A DNA stretch of 55,402 nucleotides from a virus. The translations under genes were made by a program, and so were the position numbers. The DNA lies in IMG/VR virus record IMGVR_UViG_3300045988_154458, positions 1-55,402 of that record; one strand, given 5' to 3'. Positions 6,855 through 40,476 of the stretch are shown here, in pieces (position 1 is the stretch's first letter; the number at the start of each line of letters is the position of its first letter). The notes below the pieces were generated by a model. The model did no database searches and had not been told where the DNA came from. It was given only the letters and a program-made list of their open reading frames with translations.

Positions 6855-6886
6855 TATTATAGTATTTTGAAAGAGAGTGATTTTTG

Positions 6887-7480
6887 ATGCCTAGAAGAAG
6901 AATTAATGATGATAACAGAGATAATGTTACTAAATTTATGGAAATCACCAATAAAAGAGGGAATATAAGTAATAACAAAGTTAGTAAAGAATATATGAGT
7001 GATCCTAATGTTAAAGAATTTAATAAAGCTGTTAGAGAACATTGTGTAAAAAAAACTTTTCATCCTAATATGGCTTTTCAAAGTGTTGAAACATTACAGA
7101 AAGATTTAGAGGAATTCTTTGATTTATGTGATAGAACTAACACTGTTCCGACTATAGTAGCTATTGCTTTATATCTTGGAGTTAATAGAGATACAATCTA
7201 CGCTCATGCCAATAATCCGAACTCTCCCGTTTCCGACGTTTTTAAAAATGTTATCTCATATTGTCATATGTCAATGGAAAATGGGGCTTTAGTTGGTAAG
7301 ATAAATCCAGTCACATACATCTTCTTAGGAAAGAACTATTTTGGGTTACGAGATGATAAAAATATCACAGTTACCCCAACTTCTGATAATGCTCAAATAA
7401 GTAGTAAATCGACTATGGATGCAATTCAGAAACAATTGGAAGAAGAAACGATACCTAATGCCGACTATCAAGTAAAATAA
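6887..7480 (+). CDS. terS: Terminase small subunit (gp3-like DNA-packaging protein family)
   Basis: LQKDLEEFFDLCDRTNTVPTIVAIALYLGVNRDTIY...KINPVTYIFLGKNYFGLRDDK matches the recalled pattern of Firmicute-phage small terminases (EEYF..C....PT..GLAL.LG.SR..L....IF.LKN.FGW.DK). ATG 6887 follows GAAAGAGAGTGA. Confidence 0.75.
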   Translation: MPRRRINDDNRDNVTKFMEITNKRGNISNNKVSKEYMSDPNVKEFNKAVREHCVKKTFHPNMAFQSVETLQKDLEEFFDLCDRTNTVPTIVAIALYLGVNRDTIYAHANNPNSPVSDVFKNVISYCHMSMENGALVGKINPVTYIFLGKNYFGLRDDKNITVTPTSDNAQISSKSTMDAIQKQLEEETIPNADYQVK

Positions 7481-11867: not shown

Positions 11868-12134
11868 ATGAAAAAATTGAGTATAATGGGGTTGATCTTT
11901 GGAATGCTGTCAATCACAGGTTGTAGTGTTACTAATATAACACCGATAGACACAAATGGAAAAAATGACACTTATTATATGCAAGATAGTAGTATGTACG
12001 ATTTTTATGTTGATAAAGCTACGTGTGTTGAATATATACGTAGAGTTGGCAACGGAGGAGCAATGACGCCAAGATTAAATAGCGATGGAACACTATTGTT
12101 AAATGAGATATGTTTGAAGGAGAAGAATAAATAA
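11868..12134 (+). CDS. Lipoprotein (possible superinfection-exclusion type surface protein)
   Basis: Signal peptide MKKLSIMGLIFGMLSITGC with lipobox I-T-G-C. GAGGTGATAATCT precedes the ATG. Confidence 0.65.
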   Translation: MKKLSIMGLIFGMLSITGCSVTNITPIDTNGKNDTYYMQDSSMYDFYVDKATCVEYIRRVGNGGAMTPRLNSDGTLLLNEICLKEKNK

Positions 12135-12249
12135 TAAATTTTTTGAAAATGTTAATATTTTTGTTATTACTGGTACCTTATTCACCATCTGAAATAATAT
12201 TCTTTATTTATTCAATAATATCGAAACTATTTAATAAATAAATTAGTGG

Positions 12250-12278
12250 TTGACAAATAAAATAAATATGTTATATTA
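12250..12278 (+). promoter_or_regulatory. Sigma-70 promoter of the RNA locus (TTGACA-N16/17-TATATT, TGn)
   Basis: TTGACA at 12250-12255, then AATAAAATAAATATGT, then TATATT at 12272-12277. Confidence 0.6.
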
Positions 12279-12296
12279 ATATTGTCAATTAAATAT

Positions 12297-12367
12297 TCAG
12301 GTTAACATGTGATGACTGCATGTTGGATTTATATCCTAAAGGGGTAGTTCAATTCTAATAACCTGAA
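12297..12367 (+). ncRNA. tRNA-like cloverleaf with truncated anticodon arm (degenerate tRNA or tRNA mimic)
   Basis: A 7-bp acceptor-like stem pairs TCAGGTT (12297-12303) with AACCTGA (12360-12366). A 6-bp hairpin pairs AACATG with CATGTT (12304-12324). The GGAT-TTAT-ATCC hairpin (12325-12336) has only a 4-nt loop. A T-arm-like GGTAG-TTCAATT-CTAAT lies at 12343-12359. The element ends 7 nt upstream of tRNA-Trp. Confidence 0.45.
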
Positions 12368-12373
12368 TCAGAT

Positions 12374-12448
12374 GCACTTGTAGTTTAAAGGCAAAATAAC
12401 AGACTCCAAATCTGTAAGATCAGGGTTCAAATCCTTGCAAGTGTGCCA
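12374..12448 (+). tRNA. trnW: tRNA-Trp (anticodon CCA)
   Basis: Hand fold: acceptor GCACTTG/CAAGTGT (G1-U72), D stem GTTT/AAAT, anticodon arm ACAGA-CTCCAAA-TCTGT, variable loop AAGAT, T arm CAGGG-TTCAAAT-CCTTG, discriminator G, encoded CCA. Confidence 0.8.
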
Positions 12449-13083
12449 TGTAAATATTTAGTTTTTTGAAGTTAGTACATGCTATCTTTTATAGGTAGCT
12501 TAGAGTAGATATATTGGTGGAAACTTTGTTATCCGCCAACACTTAATGAAATCGAGTGCTTTTCAATATCTATTCTAAGGTACTTATAAAAAAGTACTAT
12601 TTGATTGCTAAGTTTTTTTGCACACAATCTTTAATAGGTTGTGTCTGATTATATGATAGATTGCAATCGAAATTATTTAGGATTAGCATAGAGAAGTGAG
12701 CAAAAGATACGTGTATCGCCATTTGACCGAGGAACTTATAAGACTAGTCAACATCATATAGTCAGACAGTATCTATTAAAGATACGAGTCAAATCGTCCA
12801 GTATGACTATAATAAACTGGAGTGTTTCACATACTTTATGTATGTGTTATTATGTACCTTTCTTACAAGGTTTTATCTCAGTATATAAGTGAGATTATAA
12901 AAACTGAGATGTCAATCGCAAAAGCGAGGAAAAAGCGTAAAGTCTTTTGTAAGGGCACTGTTGTTATAATTAAAGACTATTTATAGCGGGTATACACATC
13001 TATAAATACTCCAAATGACGGAGCCCTATTTTTCTTTAATTTAAAAATGTGGCTAGAAAACTTTAGAAGCTCTAGTTTTTTTT
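12449..13083 (+). ncRNA. Candidate large structured ncRNA (about 630 nt; ROOL/GOLLD-class candidate)
   Basis: No ORF of 60 aa or more on either strand. Lies downstream of promoter 12250 and tRNA-Trp, and ends at a hairpin plus T8 (13076-13083). Many hand-paired helices are listed in the findings. Confidence 0.5.
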
Positions 13084-13092
13084 CATATTATC

Positions 13093-13121
13093 TTGACAAA
13101 TGGTTTATAGTATGATATATT
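13093..13121 (+). promoter_or_regulatory. Sigma-70 promoter (TTGACA-N17-TGaTATATT)
   Basis: TTGACA at 13093-13098, 17-nt spacer, TATATT at 13116-13121 preceded by TGA. Confidence 0.6.
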
Positions 13122-13127
13122 TGATAT

Positions 13128-13290
13128 GTACTATCAAACATGTACAATTGAACTTAGTACCCTATATGTACACAGCTGAGTTCCAATTTCAATGGTAGTA
13201 AAAAACTACCATTTCATGCTTACTGTAGAATACCAACGTATATAGTTGAGCAGTGTGAATCTGCTAGTAAGCTTGTTTTATTTTTTTCAT
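13128..13290 (+). ncRNA. Candidate sRNA (about 160 nt)
   Basis: No ORF. A 9-bp hairpin pairs AATGGTAGT with ACTACCATT (13191-13213). A closing stem pairs GCTTACT (13218-13224) with AGTAAGC (13266-13272). An inner hairpin GCAG-TGTGAAT-CTGC is followed by TTGTTTTATTTTTTT. Confidence 0.45.
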
Positions 13291-13330
13291 CTCCAAATGA
13301 CGAAATATACAGTAATTTTCTTTTCGTATA

Positions 13331-13356
13331 TCAAGGTTTACAAGCCTTGATTTTTT
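13331..13356 (+). terminator. Rho-independent terminator
   Basis: TCAAGG (13331-13336) pairs with CCTTGA (13345-13350), followed by T6. Confidence 0.6.
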
Positions 13357-13359
13357 ATG

Positions 13360-13388
13360 TTGAATATATTATATAAATATGTTATAAT
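13360..13388 (+). promoter_or_regulatory. Promoter of the late/structural operon (TTGAAT-N17-TGtTATAAT)
   Basis: TTGAAT at 13360-13365, 17-nt spacer, TATAAT at 13383-13388 preceded by TGT. Confidence 0.55.
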
Positions 13389-13421
13389 AGTATTGATAAT
13401 ATAACTTTTGTGAGGAAATAT

Positions 13422-13661
13422 ATGGGATTGGTTTATGAAGATATGCTGTTTTATAATTATTATGAATTTTGTGGAAAAGGTGCTTATATAAAATCACGTT
13501 ATAACAAATTATCATTACATGATAAATATGTATATAAATTATATATATATTCAATAGATAATATTAAATATTATTTAAAAGATATGATTTGGGAATATTT
13601 AAACGAGCCTATTGGTAGTTGTTATTTCATGACGTTAGAAACATTATGGGCATATGTATAA
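13422..13661 (+). CDS. Hypothetical protein upstream of terL
   Basis: Track ORF starts at 13410 (GTG). ATG 13422 follows GAGGAAATAT. Confidence 0.5.
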   Translation: MGLVYEDMLFYNYYEFCGKGAYIKSRYNKLSLHDKYVYKLYIYSIDNIKYYLKDMIWEYLNEPIGSCYFMTLETLWAYV

Positions 13662-13673
13662 AAGGGTGATTAT

Positions 13674-15437
13674 ATGGATATAAAAGAATCTGTTGAAAAG
13701 CGTATCGAAAAAACAATAGAATTATTAAATGAATTAAAAGATAAAACTACTCTTACTTATTTACAAGGTTTACATAGTATAAAAGTTGATTGTGAATCGA
13801 TTAGTGATTTTGATAAAGCGTGTAAATATGCTACAATAATCATTGATTTGTTGCAACGAAATGTGATAAAATACGATGACACACCTAAAAATCAAGATGT
13901 GGTAAATGATATTTGGGTTACCGCATATGATACAAAAGCAAGGCAAGGTGATTTTGAATCTTTTTGTATAGCTATGGAATGGAATAGACCGATAAATAAT
14001 CAATTTTATTTGCCCAGAGCGAAGCTTTTGAAAAAACATGGTGTTATACAAGGTGTGCAAGACTTAATTGATGATAAATTGGATTTGTTGGTTTTGAATT
14101 TGCCCCCACGTATTGGGAAGTCGACAATTGGTTTGTTTTTGCAAGTTTTGTTAGGTAGTATGAACCCGCGTGGTAGTATAATTGGCGTAGGACATAGTGC
14201 GAGATTGATAGAATCGTTTTACAAAGAAGTTATAAAGCTTATGACTAGTGACGAATATAGATATAATAAAATTTTTCCAAATAACAAAATTGTCGATAAA
14301 TCAAGTGCTTATAACTTTATAGATATAAACACAACCAAACGTTTCCACACATATAACTATTTATCTATTGAAACAGGTGGTACTGGTAGTGTTGAAGCTA
14401 ACGTTCTGTTGTACTGCGATGATTTAGTTAAAGATGTTGAACAGGCGAATAATCCGGATAGATTGGAAAAGTTGTATTATAATTATACCGGTACAATCAA
14501 AGATAGAAAACTTATGAAGTTATGTAAAGATGGAGTTTATCGTCCATGTCCTGAAATTCATATTAACACTCCCTGGAGTTTATATGATGTTACAAGTCGT
14601 GTTGTCGCAAATGCGAAGATTGATGGGGCTATGGATAGAGTTAGAATCGTTTCAGTACCATGTTATGATGAAAATGGAAATAGTAATTTTGAATATGATT
14701 ATGGAAAAGGTTTTAATACAAAATATTATAAAGACATGGAACTTGCAGAAGATCCGGTAATATTTAGTGCAAAATATCTGATGACGCCTGTTGAGAGAGA
14801 TGGCTTGGTGTTTAATCGTGAAAATGTAAGTTTTTATTATGATTTACCTGGGGAAGAGCCAGATATGATTGTTGGCTATGCCGATGTTACACATGGTGGA
14901 GATGATTATTTTTCACTACCAATTGGATATGTGTATGGAACAGAAGTATATATAGAAGACGTCTTGTTTATAAATAAATTTGGTGGAGACGATGGTAGTA
15001 GACCATTTGTTAGAGATATAATTATAAGAAATAAAGCAACACGTGTTGGTGTTGAAAAGAATAATGGTGGAGATTTTTATTCAACGTTAATGCAACAAGA
15101 TTTAGCAGATGTTGGATATAGGTGTCACATAACAACACATAACGCACCAACGAATAAAGCAAAACGAGATAGAATTCTAGCGTGTCAAAATGAAATAAAA
15201 GGTATTGCTACCGAAAAGAATACATATAGAATATATTTTAAACATCCTGACACAATAAAAGGAAATATACAATATCAGACTGCTATGCAGAATTTATATA
15301 GTTGGAATCAAAATATAAATGCTCAGAAAAAACAGCATGATGATTTTCCAGATAGTTTAGCTGGAATGATAACGAATGTGTTAGGTGGTTTTAAAAATAC
15401 AGCAAAAGTTTATGATGCTAGTCGTTTTGGAATATAA
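13674..15437 (+). CDS. terL: Terminase large subunit
   Basis: 587 aa. Walker A-like LVLNLPPRIGKST. Size and position immediately upstream of the portal gene fit terL. GGGTGATTAT precedes the ATG. Confidence 0.9.
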   Translation: MDIKESVEKRIEKTIELLNELKDKTTLTYLQGLHSIKVDCESISDFDKACKYATIIIDLLQRNVIKYDDTPKNQDVVNDIWVTAYDTKARQGDFESFCIAMEWNRPINNQFYLPRAKLLKKHGVIQGVQDLIDDKLDLLVLNLPPRIGKSTIGLFLQVLLGSMNPRGSIIGVGHSARLIESFYKEVIKLMTSDEYRYNKIFPNNKIVDKSSAYNFIDINTTKRFHTYNYLSIETGGTGSVEANVLLYCDDLVKDVEQANNPDRLEKLYYNYTGTIKDRKLMKLCKDGVYRPCPEIHINTPWSLYDVTSRVVANAKIDGAMDRVRIVSVPCYDENGNSNFEYDYGKGFNTKYYKDMELAEDPVIFSAKYLMTPVERDGLVFNRENVSFYYDLPGEEPDMIVGYADVTHGGDDYFSLPIGYVYGTEVYIEDVLFINKFGGDDGSRPFVRDIIIRNKATRVGVEKNNGGDFYSTLMQQDLADVGYRCHITTHNAPTNKAKRDRILACQNEIKGIATEKNTYRIYFKHPDTIKGNIQYQTAMQNLYSWNQNINAQKKQHDDFPDSLAGMITNVLGGFKNTAKVYDASRFGI

Positions 15438-37468: not shown

Positions 37469-37545
37469 GGGTAGATACTCAAGCGGATTAAGAGGTTGGT
37501 CTGCAACACCAATATTCATGAGTTCGAATCTCATTCTGCCCTCCA
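37469..37545 (+). tRNA. trnC: tRNA-Cys (anticodon GCA)
   Basis: Hand fold: acceptor GGGTAGA/TCTGCCC (one G-U), D arm CTC(A)-AGCGGATTA-(A)GAG, anticodon arm TTGGT-CTGCAAC-ACCAA, variable loop TATTC, T arm ATGAG-TTCGAAT-CTCAT, discriminator T, encoded CCA. Confidence 0.85.
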
Positions 37546-37927: not shown

Positions 37928-38737
37928 TTAAAACCCTAATTCAATTTTATATTGAATTGGGGTTTTATATTTTAAAGAATAACTTGGTCTTTCATTGTTA
38001 TAATAGTAAATATATTCTTCAATAAGTTTAGGAACATCTTTGCAATGTTTTAAATTAAAATCAACAATTAATTCTTCTTTAATCCAACCATTTAATGATT
38101 CATTAACTGGATTATCAGTTGGTGTTCCTGCTCGACTCATTGAACGAGATATGTTATAATTTTCTAGAAGCTTATTATAAGCTTTAGACGAATAAACTGA
38201 ACCTTGATCTGTGTGAAGAATAATCAAATCATCAGTTTGTTCTTTTTTTATGCGGTTTAATACTTGATTTAATCCATCATAATATGACCTTGTATCTCCT
38301 TTTCTAGATACTAAACCATATCCAACTATTTCTTTATTCCAAGCATCAAAATACATCGTTAATTCATAATATGTTCTGCCAACCCAAAATGCAGTCATAT
38401 CTGAAACTATTACTTCAAATGGTCTTGATAAATATTTCCATCCATTCCATACTAGATTATTAAATTTTTCATGTTCTTCATCAGGTTTCTTCCATTGATA
38501 ATGTTTCCCTTTTGACTTAATACCTTCATATTTACAACATAAATGAACATGGTTATCAGACCAAACTATACCATAATGTAATCTTGCATAAGCATTAATC
38601 CATCTATATCCATGTGATGGATGCTTTTCGTGTATCTCTTTTATTAATTTTATATCGGATTGTCTTGATATCATTTTTTCTGTTGGGTGCTCCTGTCTGT
38701 ATTTCCATTTATAATATCCAGACCTACTAATAGACAT
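37928..38737 (-). CDS. IS3-family transposase OrfB (DDE/rve), expressed as an OrfAB fusion by -1 frameshift
   Basis: The orfB frame is open upstream to the A7 site and reads ...YGVKLLCEYMSISRSGYYKWKYRQ. DDE-type motifs include HTDQGSVY. Confidence 0.85.
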   Translation of the reverse strand: MSISRSGYYKWKYRQEHPTEKMISRQSDIKLIKEIHEKHPSHGYRWINAYARLHYGIVWSDNHVHLCCKYEGIKSKGKHYQWKKPDEEHEKFNNLVWNGWKYLSRPFEVIVSDMTAFWVGRTYYELTMYFDAWNKEIVGYGLVSRKGDTRSYYDGLNQVLNRIKKEQTDDLIILHTDQGSVYSSKAYNKLLENYNISRSMSRAGTPTDNPVNESLNGWIKEELIVDFNLKHCKDVPKLIEEYIYYYNNERPSYSLKYKTPIQYKIELGF

Positions 38738-39222: not shown

Positions 39223-40476
39223 TCACTTCAAATTGAGTTCTTTTATACTATCACGTAGTTTATATTTTTTCTTTTGAATACTAGGAACAGAATAATTTAA
39301 TTTTGTTGAAATCCATTTTTCACTATATCCATCTACATAAAATAACTTTCCAATAATATAATCAATACTATTTTTATCAGTAATATTAAGCACAATATTA
39401 TCATACACTTCAATAGTCATACCTCTATATAATTTTTTATTTTTATTATCAACAAAGAAACTGGCAATATAGTTTAATAATATACCTAACAAAACAGAAA
39501 TAATTAGTGATATATTACTAGGTACAGTTATTCTATTTAAACAATAATACGAAATGTTAGAAATAACAAAGCATGATAATGCTGTTTTCATATGAAATGG
39601 TTTTCCAAATAATTTTTTATTCAACCAAAAACTACATAATATAATTACACATTCTATAAAAGTATCATTTAGAAAAGCTATAAATAAAATGACAAATACT
39701 GTAAATATATTCCAAAGTAAATACAACGGTATGTATATCATATTTGTTAATTTATCTACTTTATTTTTACTTTTATTATTTTGATATGCGTTTTGCAACT
39801 TTTTCGGCAAACTCTTTAATAAAGTCTGTAGGCGCAAAAATGAACCAACTACCATATCCCATAGCGAATTACCTCCCATCTGAAAAAATAATTTATAAGC
39901 AATTACAGATAACATTATATAATCAAAATTTAGTATAATATTAGCTATTCCACTGTGTATATAATTTTTACAATTAATAAAAGGAATATTTCTAATAATA
40001 ACACTAATAAATTGAAATAATAAATTAATTATACAATATAACCAATAGTTGCTTATGTGATGTTTACACAAGTTGTTTTTCTTCACAAATTTAATATATA
40101 CAATTTCTAACATAAATAACCATAATAAATCTGTAAAAATAAATATAAAAGGCATATTATAAGTATATTTTAAAAATTGAGATATTATACTTAAAGGCAT
40201 AGTTATTAATGTAAATATCTTCATTGTCTTACTGTTGTCGGCACATGATATACTTAAAATAATATATGTGTATAAAGTTAATGTTATCCCATACCATAAC
40301 ATTTGTAAATGATATTTATTGAAAAACAAATCAATCGATATTAAGATTTTATTATTATCATCTAACCCAAAATAATTTAAACCACATATTTTTAAAATAA
40401 ATATAATGCCTAATATTATAAAATAAGTAGATAATGTACTTGACATTATCTTATCAAGATCTTTCTTCATAACCAA
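39223..40476 (-). CDS. Polytopic membrane protein with C-terminal sigma-70 region-4-like HTH
   Basis: 417 aa with about ten hydrophobic segments by eye. C-terminus ...SIDYIIGKLFYVDGYSEKWISTKLNYSVPSIQKKKYKLRDSIKEL. The last two codons and the stop lie inside the IS terminal repeat. Confidence 0.6.
   Translation of the reverse strand: MVMKKDLDKIMSSTLSTYFIILGIIFILKICGLNYFGLDDNNKILISIDLFFNKYHLQMLWYGITLTLYTYIILSISCADNSKTMKIFTLITMPLSIISQFLKYTYNMPFIFIFTDLLWLFMLEIVYIKFVKKNNLCKHHISNYWLYCIINLLFQFISVIIRNIPFINCKNYIHSGIANIILNFDYIMLSVIAYKLFFQMGGNSLWDMVVGSFLRLQTLLKSLPKKLQNAYQNNKSKNKVDKLTNMIYIPLYLLWNIFTVFVILFIAFLNDTFIECVIILCSFWLNKKLFGKPFHMKTALSCFVISNISYYCLNRITVPSNISLIISVLLGILLNYIASFFVDNKNKKLYRGMTIEVYDNIVLNITDKNSIDYIIGKLFYVDGYSEKWISTKLNYSVPSIQKKKYKLRDSIKELNLK

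What the first reader, a model, noticed from the sequence alone, without database searches (positions are those of the whole stretch)
12449..13083. About 630-nt ORF-free, heavily base-paired RNA locus next to tRNA-Trp: candidate large ornate ncRNA (ROOL/GOLLD class or new)
Seen in sequence:
- From the 3' end of tRNA-Trp to a T8 run (13076-13083) there is no ORF of 60 aa or more on either strand. The rest of the genome is almost fully coding.
- The unit has its own promoter (12250) and ends at a hairpin plus T8.
- Helices I could pair by hand: 12645-12657 with 12753-12765 (13 bp, one G-U, long range); 12978-12986 with 13000-13008 (9 bp); 12828-12834 with 12840-12846 (7 bp); 12514-12520 with 12533-12539 (7 bp); 12580-12585 with 12592-12597; 12769-12774 with 12780-12785; 12622-12627 with 12639-12644; 12856-12860 with 12867-12871; 13009-13012 with 13020-13023.
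- Segment 12875-12882 can pair with either 12890-12895 or 12903-12910, which suggests a switch or pseudoknot.
- A self-complementary 10-mer GATTGCAATC (12659-12668) could mediate RNA-RNA dimerisation.

Established knowledge: ROOL and GOLLD are 500-800-nt ornate RNAs of unknown function. They are enriched in Firmicute phages and prophages and often lie adjacent to tRNA genes.

Inference: this locus is a member of one of those classes, or a new large phage RNA.
Basis: partly seen in the sequence, partly recalled or inferred. Interest (0 to 1): 0.8.

Follow-up and report, generated by a model that had tools for sequence, protein, structure and literature searches.

The report
Modular phage RNA cassette array
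The gene-free stretch after tRNA-Trp is a real, heavily folded phage RNA locus, but it is not ROOL or GOLLD: it is a string of small RNA "cassettes", each held in a conserved clamp-like stem that recurs in well over 100 gut and rumen phages and appears to be undescribed.

Summary
The stretch has no ORF of 60 aa or more; the ORF-free gap actually spans 12135-13409. All hand-paired helices exist, and the fold is much more stable than shuffled sequence (z = -5.5).

The ROOL/GOLLD reading fails. No Rfam family other than tRNA matches, even at E<=10. True ROOLs in related phages score 156-196 bits in the same slot upstream of the terminase gene.

The locus is a non-coding RNA operon:
- promoter at 12250, a structured leader, then tRNA-Trp
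- two "bracketed" cassettes (12481-12598 and 12622-12785)
- a candidate pseudoknot and a hairpin-rich 3' domain
- a T8 terminator

Each bracket is hairpin / 12-13-bp stem / variable cargo / stem / hairpin. I found about 127 type-1 and about 15-20 type-2 brackets in viral contigs and in 23 Bacilli/Tenericutes genome assemblies.

They show strong covariation. G-U pairs outnumber A-C pairs 178:6 on the sense strand, and brackets share the orientation of neighbouring genes. There are more than 100 unrelated cargo RNAs, including a true tRNA, tRNA-like folds and hairpins with UUGCAA loops.

Near-identical phages carry different cassettes. In two loci, brackets directly follow ROOL.

Most likely mechanism (inferred): the bracket is a processing and end-capping scaffold that releases small RNAs from one long transcript.

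The parts
12250..12277 (+). Sigma-70-type promoter TTGACA-16-TATATT with an upstream TG; likely start of the non-coding RNA operon.
   Evidence: The same promoter-like sequence recurs elsewhere in the genome. It is conserved in L001, L003 and L048.
12298..12370 (+). Structured leader: a 10-bp outer stem enclosing inner hairpins, weakly tRNA-like.
   Evidence: tRNA model hit of 20 bits, below the threshold of 29. It differs from the L001 variant at 16 positions and none breaks a predicted pair.
12374..12448 (+). tRNA-Trp (anticodon CCA).
   Evidence: ARAGORN; Rfam tRNA, 64.3 bits.
12481..12598 (+). Type-1 bracketed cassette.
- hp1: 12481-12499 (GCTATC-TTTTATA-GGTAGC)
- P stem 5' arm: 12500-12512
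- cargo: 12513-12565 (53 nt)
- P stem 3' arm: 12566-12578
- hp2: 12579-12598
   Evidence: It matches the family consensus found in about 127 distinct modules. Covariation is shown.
12622..12785 (+). Type-2 bracketed cassette.
- hp1': 12622-12644
- cargo: 12658-12752
- hp2': 12769-12785
   Evidence: Homologues are in L048, L181, L129 and about 15 further loci, with compensatory changes in P'. L191 has C12755T, which gives a G-U pair.
12659..12668 (+). Self-complementary GATTGCAATC inside the type-2 cargo. It contains the recurrent UUGCAAUCG motif and is a candidate kissing (dimerisation) loop.
   Evidence: The palindrome is kept by a double change in L048. TTGCAA occurs 33 times against 4.5 expected in cargo RNAs; TTGCAATCG occurs 8 times against 0.04 expected. 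In two other cargo families it forms a 9-nt hairpin loop.
12787..12821 (+). Candidate H-type pseudoknot: AGUCA-aaucg-UCCAG-ua-UGACU-auaauaaa-CUGGA.
   Evidence: Read directly from the sequence. The stems are invariant and only the loops vary in L012, L191 and L001. There is no compensatory change, so it remains unproven.
12828..12846 (+). Hairpin CACAUAC/GUAUGUG.
   Evidence: L191 has a compensatory C-G to U-A change. L048 has an A-to-G change that gives a G-U pair on the + strand.
12856..12871 (+). Hairpin ACCUU/AAGGU.
   Evidence: It never varies, so comparison says nothing for or against it.
12875..12910 (+). Long hairpin AUCUCAGU...ACUGAGAU.
   Evidence: The inner alternative pairing with 12890-12895 is not conserved.
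12931..12948 (+). Small hairpin AAAAGC...G(U)CUUUU.
   Evidence: L191 has a compensatory C-G to A-U change (columns 171/177).
12952..13027 (+). Predicted multi-helix domain closed by GGGC/GCCC. It contains the 9-bp hairpin 12978-12986/13000-13008 and the CUCC/GGAG hairpin.
   Evidence: The only informative change is one G-C to G-U; the rest never varies.
13053..13083 (+). Weak terminator-like hairpin (CTAGA/TCTAG) followed by T8.
   Evidence: Sequence. The terminator scan does not call it. L191 has a T-to-C change inside the T run.
13093..13355 (+). A separate downstream small non-coding unit outside the finding: promoter TTGACA-17-TATATT, then a structured RNA with hairpin terminators around 13238-13285 and at 13330-13351.
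   Evidence: About 100% identical in L001, L002 and L003.

Best explanation
Window 12250-13083 is a phage non-coding RNA operon. The finding region (12449-13083) is its distal part. It is an array of separate modules, not one ROOL/GOLLD-type molecule.

Shown:
- Two tandem members of a widespread RNA family follow tRNA-Trp.
- Each member has a conserved 'bracket': hairpin hp1, a 12-13-bp stem of conserved sequence (UAGAGUAGAUAU/AUAUCUAUUCUA in type 1), and hairpin hp2.
- The bracket encloses an interchangeable, independently folded cargo RNA.
- A 300-nt 3' domain specific to this lineage follows: a candidate pseudoknot plus hairpins, ending at a T8 run.
- Cargo RNAs are diverse. They include a true tRNA, tRNA-like folds that use the bracket stem as an extended acceptor stem, and hairpins with palindromic UUGCAA loops.
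- The same cargo family can sit in either bracket type.

Inferred mechanism (about 35-40% likely):
- The bracket is a processing and end-capping scaffold.
- The 3' half of hp1 and the 5' half of hp2 can also pair with each other. This extends the stem to about 25 bp with a fixed G-G mismatch and G-U pairs.
- A helix of that length suits a double-strand-specific endonuclease such as host RNase III.
- After cutting, hp1 would refold to cap the 3' end of the upstream RNA (tRNA, ROOL). hp2 would cap the 5' end of the downstream RNA (the next cassette, or the terminase/late mRNA). The cargo would be released as a small stable RNA on a short stem.
- This accounts for all three conserved, mutually exclusive pairings.
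- What the cargo RNAs do is unknown. Possibilities are tRNA mimics or decoys, or self-associating RNAs.
For: Not ROOL/GOLLD:
- No Rfam hit at the gathering score or at E<=10.
- The ROOL nhmmer profile is negative.
- Positive controls: ROOL scores 156-196 bits in the same slot in L019, L020, L023 and L033.

Modularity:
- L001 and L003 have 100% identical TerL and share about 99% identical flanks. The segment 12506-12765 is replaced by 677 nt in L001 and 473 nt in L003.
- L048 carries a third arrangement.

The bracket family:
- About 127 distinct type-1 modules with cargo of 2-196 nt.
- Type 2 in about 20 loci.

RNA-level structure:
- G-U against A-C pairs: 120:5 in the P stem, 45:0 in hp1, 13:1 in hp2.
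- 56 distinct hp1 stems and 47 distinct hp2 stems.
- Permutation tests: hp1 5.42 against 4.47 +/- 0.125; hp2 5.53 against 5.15 +/- 0.09.
- The extended 25-bp helix is 92.8% paired. Twelve pairs show changes on both sides, 0 of 500 shuffles reach this, and the slid controls pair at 30-53%.
- The three-helix model is also above every shuffle.
- The extended form is favoured by a median of about 5 kcal/mol.

Transcript context:
- 76 modules have both flanking ORFs in the same orientation as the module; 3 have both opposite.
- 36 of the 53 modules with a tRNA in the locus lie within 300 nt of it, always on the same strand.
- ROOL lies immediately upstream of brackets in L130 and L172.
- Eight modules have a ribosome-binding site and start codon within 40 nt after the stem.

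Cargo:
- A true tRNA-Trp in L131; tRNA-like cargo reaching Rfam tRNA scores of 41.7 and 39.8 bits.
- About 127 cargo clusters, four of them shared between bracket types.

Not coding:
- A 1-nt deletion in L191 frameshifts the 54-aa ORF.
Against: - There is no transcript, end-mapping or cleavage data. The processing step is pure inference.
- RNase III normally shows little sequence specificity. The near-invariant sequence of the 12-bp stem therefore points instead to a sequence-specific partner, and I found none. No protein family accompanies more than 20 of 127 modules.
- The hp1 and hp2 loops are complementary, so a kissing-loop fold rather than an alternative helix could explain the same covariation.
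- The 3' domain (12787-13083) has homologues only in six near-identical contigs plus a 42-nt match in L012. Its fold rests on 2 compensatory pairs, 4 wobble-preserving changes and 4 pair-breaking changes.
- GOLLD also has a variable 5' region, a conserved 3' region and embedded tRNAs (PMC12286853). A single large RNA with a variable 5' region is therefore not excluded.
Confidence: 0.55

Rival explanations
1. The whole 12449-13083 transcript works as one large RNA of a new ornate class. Like GOLLD, it would have a variable 5' region and a conserved 3' region, and it would multimerise through palindromic loops, replacing ROOL functionally in this phage lineage.
For: - It occupies the exact slot where related phages carry ROOL.
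- The 3' 320 nt are about 99% conserved across contigs, including one whose TerL is only 77% identical.
- The palindromic loop motif UUGCAA is enriched and is kept by a compensatory change.
- GOLLD has a variable 5' region, a conserved 3' region and embedded tRNAs (PMC12286853).
- The fold is strongly stable, z = -5.5.
Against: - Cassette number and content differ between phages with identical TerL.
- The brackets occur alone at many other loci and together with ROOL, so they are not a ROOL substitute.
- No long-range covariation links the cassettes to the 3' domain.
- The high conservation of the 3' domain may simply reflect recent exchange: L191 shows a mosaic pattern of 0% against about 7% divergence on either side of 12755.
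Confidence: 0.15
2. The brackets are DNA-level elements: inverted-repeat mobile elements (like MITEs or REPINs) or recombination sites that fold as single-stranded DNA (like integron attC sites). They would shuffle tRNA and small-RNA cassettes between phages. On this reading the RNA folds are incidental.
For: - The arms are conserved inverted repeats of about 31 nt around an unrelated interior.
- Cassettes are swapped between near-identical phages and between bracket types.
- There are several copies per genome: four in L012.
- HNH endonuclease genes are frequent neighbours.
- An 'empty' type-2 bracket occurs in L001, and near-empty type-1 brackets with 2-nt and 9-nt loops occur.
Against: - G-U pairs outnumber A-C pairs 178:6, always on the gene-sense strand.
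- 76 modules against 3 share the orientation of both flanking genes.
- tRNA and tRNA-like cargo is always in the sense orientation.
- The inner stems of hp1 and hp2 covary, which a protein-bound terminal repeat does not require.
- No transposase or integrase family is consistently nearby.
- No target-site duplication is evident.
- A fold in single-stranded DNA of the same strand cannot be strictly excluded.
Confidence: 0.1
3. The bracket acts in cis as a leader of the packaging/late operon. It would be an antitermination or mRNA-stability/translation element that toggles between the two-hairpin form and the extended helix.
For: - Modules cluster at the start of the late module, next to a sigma-like late regulator, HNH, TerS, three TerL families and portal.
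- They share the orientation of these genes.
- The four-segment alternative pairing resembles an attenuator.
- Eight modules lie within 40 nt upstream of a ribosome-binding site and start codon.
Against: - In this window a T8 run and two further terminators separate the modules from the terminase gene.
- Many modules lie between tRNAs or after ROOL, far from any ORF: 50 of 127 have no ORF start within 400 nt.
- hp2 is not followed by a U run.
- More than 100 conserved, structured cargo RNAs, including tRNAs, are unexplained by a purely cis-regulatory role.
Confidence: 0.1
4. The region is the decayed remnant of the tRNA array that relatives carry in this slot, that is, pseudo-tRNAs with no function of their own.
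For: - Relatives hold up to 19 tRNAs here.
- A weak tRNA-like hit lies at 12298-12366.
- Some bracket cargo RNAs are tRNA-like.
Against: - The bracket sequence and structure are conserved across more than 100 phages with covariation.
- Neither cargo in this window has tRNA features.
- Substitutions in L191 and L048 preserve the hairpins.
Confidence: 0.05

Closest known systems
ROOL RNA (Rfam RF03087)
   Same: - Phage or prophage non-coding RNA of about 600 nt beside tRNA genes in gut and rumen Firmicutes-type phages.
- It occupies the identical slot upstream of TerL in four related phages.
- It is followed directly by bracket modules in two loci.
   Different: - No covariance-model or profile similarity.
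[quoted passage not shown] This locus is a variable array of cassettes.
GOLLD RNA
   Same: - It lies next to tRNAs in phages.
- Its 5' region is less conserved and its 3' region is conserved.
- tRNAs are sometimes embedded in it (PMC12286853).
   Different: - No Rfam match.
- The variable units here are discrete and bracketed, and they are also found as free-standing modules elsewhere.
Y RNAs / bacterial YrlA (from my own knowledge)
   Same: A conserved terminal stem formed by the 5' and 3' ends carries a variable distal module, which in some members mimics tRNA (D arm and T arm).
   Different: - The stem sequence differs.
- No Rfam hit.
- No TROVE/Ro60 protein among the 17 window proteins scanned.
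- The flanking hairpins hp1 and hp2 have no Y-RNA counterpart.
RNase III processing stalks of rRNA/tRNA operons and phage polycistronic RNAs, such as the T7 R sites and the B. subtilis phage SP82 sites with a downstream 5' stabiliser (from my own knowledge)
   Same: - Long helices formed by sequences flanking a stable RNA.
- About 25 bp with internal mismatches.
- After cleavage, hairpins protect the new ends.
- In some cases a ribosome-binding-site-like sequence lies directly downstream.
   Different: - Cleavage has not been tested.
- The stem sequence is unusually invariant.
- More than 100 different enclosed RNAs use one bracket.
Integron attC sites and REPIN/MITE elements
   Same: Imperfect inverted repeats with fixed mismatches, a variable centre, fixed orientation within an array, and cassette shuffling.
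   Different: - Strand-specific G-U pairs, orientation matching transcription, and sense-oriented tRNA cargo point to RNA.
- No integrase or transposase is linked.
HIV-1 DIS-type kissing loops (from my own knowledge)
   Same: A 9-nt hairpin loop carrying a 6-nt palindrome (UUGCAA within UUGCAAUCG) that could pair with an identical loop.
   Different: Dimerisation is untested. In this window's cargo the motif is not clearly in a hairpin loop.

Membership tests
ROOL (RF03087) | Match to the Rfam covariance model at or above the gathering score of 99.1 bits. | tested here: not met
   No ROOL hit in the window at the gathering score, at E<=10 on 12100-13450, or in the L001 variant. Controls in related loci score 156-196 bits.
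ROOL (RF03087) | Sequence similarity to ROOLs of related phages. | tested here: not met
   An nhmmer --max search with a profile of six ROOLs gave a best hit of 24 nt at E = 0.41.
ROOL (RF03087) | [quoted passage not shown] | tested here: not met
   The 5' half varies in the number and content of cassettes between phages with identical TerL. Only one candidate pseudoknot was found.
ROOL (RF03087) | Phage or prophage location next to tRNA genes. | tested here: met
   tRNA-Trp lies directly upstream, and the slot is the one that holds ROOL in relatives. This is context, not a defining feature on its own.
GOLLD | Match to the Rfam covariance model. | tested here: not met
   No hit at the gathering score or at E<=10.
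   None of them appears in the 15 matches listed at E<=10 for 12100-13450.
Bracketed cassette, type 1 (family defined here) | hp1 (GCUAYC-UUUAUA-GGUAGC), the P stem UAGAGUAGAUAU/AUAUCUAUUCUA with a G-U pair at position 5, a G-G mismatch below it, and hp2 (GGURCUU-AUAAA-AGYAC). | tested here: met
   Window 12481-12598 matches in every element.
Bracketed cassette, type 2 (family defined here) | hp1' (ACC-UUUAAC-AGGU type), the P' stem CUAGUGAUAU/AUAUCAUUAG, and hp2' CAGUAUC-UAUUAAA-GAUAC. | tested here: met
   Window 12622-12785 aligns over its full length with L048, L181 and L129, with compensatory changes in P'.
Y RNA / YrlA | A helix that binds Ro60/Rsr, and an associated Rsr (TROVE-domain) protein. 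| tested here: inconclusive
   No Rfam match of any kind to the bracket. No TROVE domain in the 17 window proteins scanned, but not all ORFs were scanned and nothing is known about the host.
RNase III processing site | A double-stranded RNA helix of about 20 bp or more formed by the flanks of the released RNA. | tested here: met
   The extended helix has 25 pairs, is 92.8% paired and shows covariation. It is thermodynamically favoured.
RNase III processing site | Staggered cleavage in vivo or in vitro. | not testable with these tools
   No transcript or end-mapping data are available.
MITE / REPIN / integron attC (DNA-level elements) | No dependence on the transcribed strand, and a linked transposase or integrase. 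| tested here: not met
   G-U against A-C pairs are 178:6 on the sense strand. 76 modules against 3 share the orientation of both flanking genes. No recombinase appears among the recurrent neighbour families.

The most novel reading that the evidence does not exclude
Gut and rumen phages of uncultured Bacilli/Tenericutes carry a previously unrecognised modular RNA system:
- A universal bracket scaffold presents more than 100 interchangeable structured RNA 'heads'.
- The heads include tRNAs, tRNA mimics and hairpins with palindromic UUGCAA loops.
- The heads are exchanged between phages like cassettes.
- The released RNAs associate with themselves or each other through kissing loops.
- They work together with, or in place of, the ROOL nanocage encoded in the same operon, for example as its cargo or adaptors, or as decoys against host defences that target tRNA.
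Probability: 0.15. Interest if true: 0.9.

Novelty: categorically new. Interest (0 to 1): 0.72.

Why it matters
- ROOL and GOLLD are among the largest bacterial and phage RNAs with no known function. This locus shows what else phages place in the same operon and in the same slot.
- It reveals an abundant, strongly covarying RNA family that is absent from Rfam 15. Its scaffold-plus-cargo logic has no described counterpart among phage RNAs.
- The family offers many testable handles:
  - a defined candidate processing site
  - natural 'empty' and tRNA-loaded versions
  - cargo shared between two scaffold types
  - a recurrent palindromic loop
- It gives a concrete way to ask how phage tRNA/ROOL transcripts are matured and what their companion RNAs do.
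- If the bracket proves to be a portable processing and stabilising element, it would also be useful as an insulator for expressing small RNAs in Firmicutes.

Tried and rejected
- ROOL, GOLLD, OLE, raiA, HEARO and intron membership: no covariance-model hit and no profile hit.
- Protein coding: the longest ORF is 54 aa, and a 1-nt deletion in L191 frameshifts it.
- Hammerhead ribozyme: type-2 stems of relatives contain CUGAUGA. The window has CUGAUUA, the segment is base-paired and covaries as a helix, and Rfam finds no ribozyme.
- preQ1-I riboswitch: the pseudoknot topology and the A-rich loop resemble it. There is no Rfam hit, and loop 2 is only 2 nt.
- cos/pac packaging site: there are several copies per genome, and the same bracket occurs with three different TerL families.
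- CRISPR-like or ToxI-like repeat array: the arms are inverted, not direct.
- Retron RNA: no reverse transcriptase appears among the recurrent neighbours.
- The conformational switch at 12875-12910: the alternative partner is not conserved.
- Searches that found nothing:
  - blastn of the region and of the bracket consensus against GenBank phages. The low-complexity filter may mask the bracket query.
  - Supplementary files of the IMG/VR structured-RNA catalogue are not held, so I could not check whether an unnamed model there overlaps the bracket.
  - Literature searches for a matching motif.
- A column-based covariation count for hp1 and hp2 is weakened by differences in loop length. I therefore also ran a permutation test that does not depend on alignment register.
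Full report
**1. The observation**

The window is an AT-rich (about 27% GC) phage genome of about 55 kb. tRNA-Trp lies at 12374-12448.

No ORF longer than 54 aa lies between it and the T8 run at 13076-13083. The ORF-free stretch in fact runs from 12135 to 13409. It is flanked by an 88-aa DUF6440 ORF on one side and by an 83-aa ORF, TerL (13674-15437) and an SPP1-type portal on the other.

- The + strand folds to -173 kcal/mol against -132 +/- 7.5 for shuffles (z = -5.5). The - strand gives z = -5.9, so energy alone does not identify the strand.
- A near-consensus promoter sits at 12250.
- The terminal hairpin before the T8 run is weak, and the terminator scan does not call it.

**2. Not ROOL or GOLLD, but in the ROOL slot**

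Rfam 15 finds only the two tRNAs at gathering scores. At E<=10 on 12100-13450, nothing appears for ROOL, GOLLD, OLE, raiA, HEARO or introns. The same holds for the longer variant in L001.

A TerL-based search brought in 46 related viral loci. In these, the slot upstream of TerL holds tRNA arrays of up to 19 genes. In four distant relatives (TerL 52-58% identical) it holds a genuine ROOL scoring 156-196 bits.

A profile built from six such ROOLs finds nothing in the window, L001, L048 or L012. The locus is therefore a positional analogue of ROOL, not a homologue.

**3. The locus is modular**

L001 and L003 encode a 100% identical TerL. They match the window at about 99% over 12138-12506 and 12765-13419. 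The middle is replaced by 677 nt in L001 and 473 nt in L003.

L048, the continuation of the L002 contig (TerL 77% identical), shows a third arrangement. L191 and L192, the latter from a human-gut metagenome, have the window's arrangement at 96-98% identity.

Comparing these variants exposed a repeated unit. It consists of a small hairpin, a long-range stem enclosing a variable insert, and a second small hairpin.

**4. The bracket family**

Type-1 consensus: hp1 GCUAYC-UUUAUA-GGUAGC, one linker nucleotide, the P stem UAGAGUAGAUAU, cargo, AUAUCUAUUCUA, one linker nucleotide, then hp2 GGURCUU-AUAAA-AGYAC.

The window copy is 12481-12598.

It also hit 23 genome assemblies named uncultured Bacilli, Tenericutes, Firmicutes, Coprobacillus and the like, from human, sheep and rumen samples.
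- Extraction gave about 127 distinct modules with cargo of 2-196 nt.
- Type 2 has the same layout with a related but different sequence.
- Type 2 occurs in about 20 further loci, with compensatory changes in P'.

**5. Evidence that this is RNA structure on the sense strand**

- G-U against A-C pairs: 120:5 in the P stem, 45:0 in hp1 and 13:1 in hp2.
- There are 56 distinct hp1 stems and 47 distinct hp2 stems.
- Swapping hairpin halves between modules shortens the helices significantly: hp1 5.42 against 4.47 +/- 0.125, hp2 5.53 against 5.15 +/- 0.09.
- The linker nucleotides pair (A-U 62, U-A 5, C-G 3, G-C 3, never unpaired), so the P stem is 13 bp.
- The 3' half and loop of hp1 are also complementary to the 5' half and loop of hp2. 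This gives a 25-pair helix that is 92.8% paired.
- That helix has 12 pairs with changes on both sides and an invariant G-G mismatch. 0 of 500 shuffles reach it, and the slid controls pair at 30-53%.
- The three-helix model also exceeds every shuffle.
- The extended form is favoured by a median of about 5 kcal/mol.
- So two mutually exclusive pairings are both conserved. Alternatively, the two loops kiss.
- Modules share the orientation of both flanking ORFs in 76 cases and oppose both in 3.
- Of the 53 modules with a tRNA in the fetched locus, 36 lie within 300 nt of it, always on the same strand.

**6. Cargo**

- Cargo RNAs fall into about 127 similarity clusters, of which 94 are singletons. 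Reverse-strand duplicates of palindromic type-2 modules inflate this count somewhat.
- Four families occur in both type-1 and type-2 brackets. Cargo and bracket are therefore independent modules.
- Homologous cargo RNAs show their own compensatory changes, for example in L004, L028 and L048.
- One cargo is a complete tRNA-Trp (L131).
- Several are tRNA-like, with D and T arms, and use the top 7 bp of the P stem as the acceptor stem. Two of them pass the Rfam tRNA threshold, at 41.7 and 39.8 bits.
- TTGCAA is enriched about sevenfold in cargo (33 against 4.5 expected). TTGCAATCG occurs 8 times against 0.04 expected.
- In two other cargo families this motif is a 9-nt hairpin loop.
- The window's GATTGCAATC contains it, and L048 keeps the palindrome through a double substitution.

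**7. Genomic context of the family**

No single protein family accompanies the modules; the most frequent is present for 20 of 127.

Recurrent neighbours are an HNH endonuclease, TerS-like proteins, three different TerL families, portal, a sigma-like late regulator and ParB-like nucleases. I named these by reading representative sequences, not by a profile search. This places the modules at the start of the packaging/late module.

- In L130 and L172 the order is tRNA(s), ROOL, then bracket module(s), with the bracket starting within about 30 nt of the ROOL 3' end.
- Eight modules have a ribosome-binding site and start codon within 40 nt after the P stem.
- The window phage encodes no TROVE/Ro60-like protein among the 17 ORFs scanned.

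**8. The 3' domain (12787-13083)**

Homologues exist only in six near-identical contigs, plus a 42-nt match to L012 covering the candidate pseudoknot at 12787-12821.

L191 supplies about 22 substitutions:
- two are compensatory pairs (hairpin 12828-12846 and hairpin 12931-12948)
- four keep pairs through G-U
- four break predicted pairs, two of them in the doubtful terminator fold
- the rest lie in loops

The pseudoknot stems never vary while its loops do, which is suggestive but not proof. The proposed switch at 12875-12910 is not supported, because the alternative partner is mutated in L001 and L192. A 1-nt deletion in L191 rules out the 54-aa ORF.

**9. Mechanism**

Shown:
- A non-coding operon made of a promoter, a structured leader, tRNA-Trp, two bracketed cassettes, a 3' domain and a T8 run.
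- The brackets are conserved sense-strand RNA structures with interchangeable cargo.

Inferred:
- The roughly 25-bp extended helix is a substrate for a double-strand-specific endonuclease, with RNase III as the obvious candidate.
- After cutting, hp1 and hp2 would re-form as protective hairpins on the new 3' and 5' ends, and the cargo would be released on a short stem.
- This explains why the extended helix and both hairpins are all conserved.
- It also explains why brackets sit between tRNAs, ROOL, further cassettes and late mRNAs, and why a tRNA can be nested inside one.
- It fits precedent in T7 and in B. subtilis phage SP82 (from my own knowledge).

The weak point is that the near-invariant stem sequence suggests a sequence-specific partner that I could not identify.

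Rivals:
- one large GOLLD-like RNA (0.15)
- a DNA-level mobile or recombination element (0.10)
- a cis-acting leader of the late operon (0.10)
- a decayed tRNA array (0.05)

**10. Novelty**

- The bracket matches nothing in Rfam 15.
- It matches nothing in GenBank phages, although low-complexity masking may affect that result.
- No paper found in the library describes it.
- Large unnamed catalogues of candidate viral RNAs exist (PMC10690425, PMC8040213). They could contain fragments of it, and I could not check them.
- As a class, a conserved scaffold carrying more than 100 interchangeable cargo RNAs in the ROOL/tRNA operon of gut and rumen phages, it appears to be new.

Noticed in passing
window 12298-12370: A structured leader lies between the promoter and tRNA-Trp: a 10-bp outer stem (ATTCAGGTTA/TAACCTGAAT) around inner hairpins. 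It gives a sub-threshold tRNA hit of 20 bits. The L001-type variant differs at 16 positions and none breaks a predicted pair. It may be a degenerate tRNA or a processing element.
   Followed up: partly
window 13093-13355: A second small non-coding unit has its own near-consensus promoter (TTGACA-17-TATATT) and two hairpin terminators. It is about 100% identical in L002, whose TerL is only 77% identical. The motif CTCCAAATGACG occurs at both 13009 and 13291.
   Followed up: partly
window 12449-13083 compared with L191 7036-7675: Divergence is mosaic: no substitutions over 12449-12754 but about 22 over 12755-13083. This suggests recent exchange of the cassette part between phages.
   Followed up: no
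L019 4771-5375, L020 4450-5100, L023 4668-5326, L033 4781-5397, L130 10625-11226(-), L172 5975-6581(-): Genuine ROOL RNAs (156-196 bits) occur in related phages and prophages. In the first four they are in the slot upstream of TerL. In L130 and L172 they are followed within about 30 nt by bracket modules.
   Followed up: yes
L131 1695-1806; L157 717-811; L168 3659-3782; L059, L060, L069, L104: Bracket modules whose cargo is a complete tRNA-Trp (L131), or a tRNA-like fold that uses the bracket stem as an extended acceptor stem. Two of the tRNA-like ones pass the Rfam tRNA threshold.
   Followed up: partly
L018, L024, L025, L026, L028, L041, L046 (TerL matches): TerL similarity begins only at residue 150 of the query. 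In L024, L025 and L028 about 1.4 kb of ORF-free DNA lies upstream of the match. This may mean a split, intron-containing or N-terminally replaced terminase gene.
   Followed up: no
window 37469-37545 and 37928-38737(-): The second tRNA (Cys) lies in an intergenic gap of about 0.8 kb next to an IS3-type transposase (rve, HTH_21). An insertion sequence appears to sit inside the phage genome.
   Followed up: no
window 39223-40476(-) and 6884-7480(+): A phage protein of 416 aa has an AgrB (accessory gene regulator B) domain. A GP3_package (small-terminase-like) gene lies about 6 kb away from TerL rather than next to it.
   Followed up: no
L012 8110-8917 and 5329-5572: L012 (TerL 72% identical) carries four type-1 modules and the pseudoknot motif. 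They lie in an 800-nt ORF-free unit between a 110-aa ORF just downstream of TerL and the portal gene, and in a second site upstream of TerL. The same parts are used in a different order and place.
   Followed up: partly
L001 4915-4940: An 'empty' type-2 bracket: the two stem arms abut (ACTGATGATATATATCATTAGT) with no cargo. Type-1 brackets with cargo of only 2 nt and 9 nt occur in L182, L164 and L169.
   Followed up: partly
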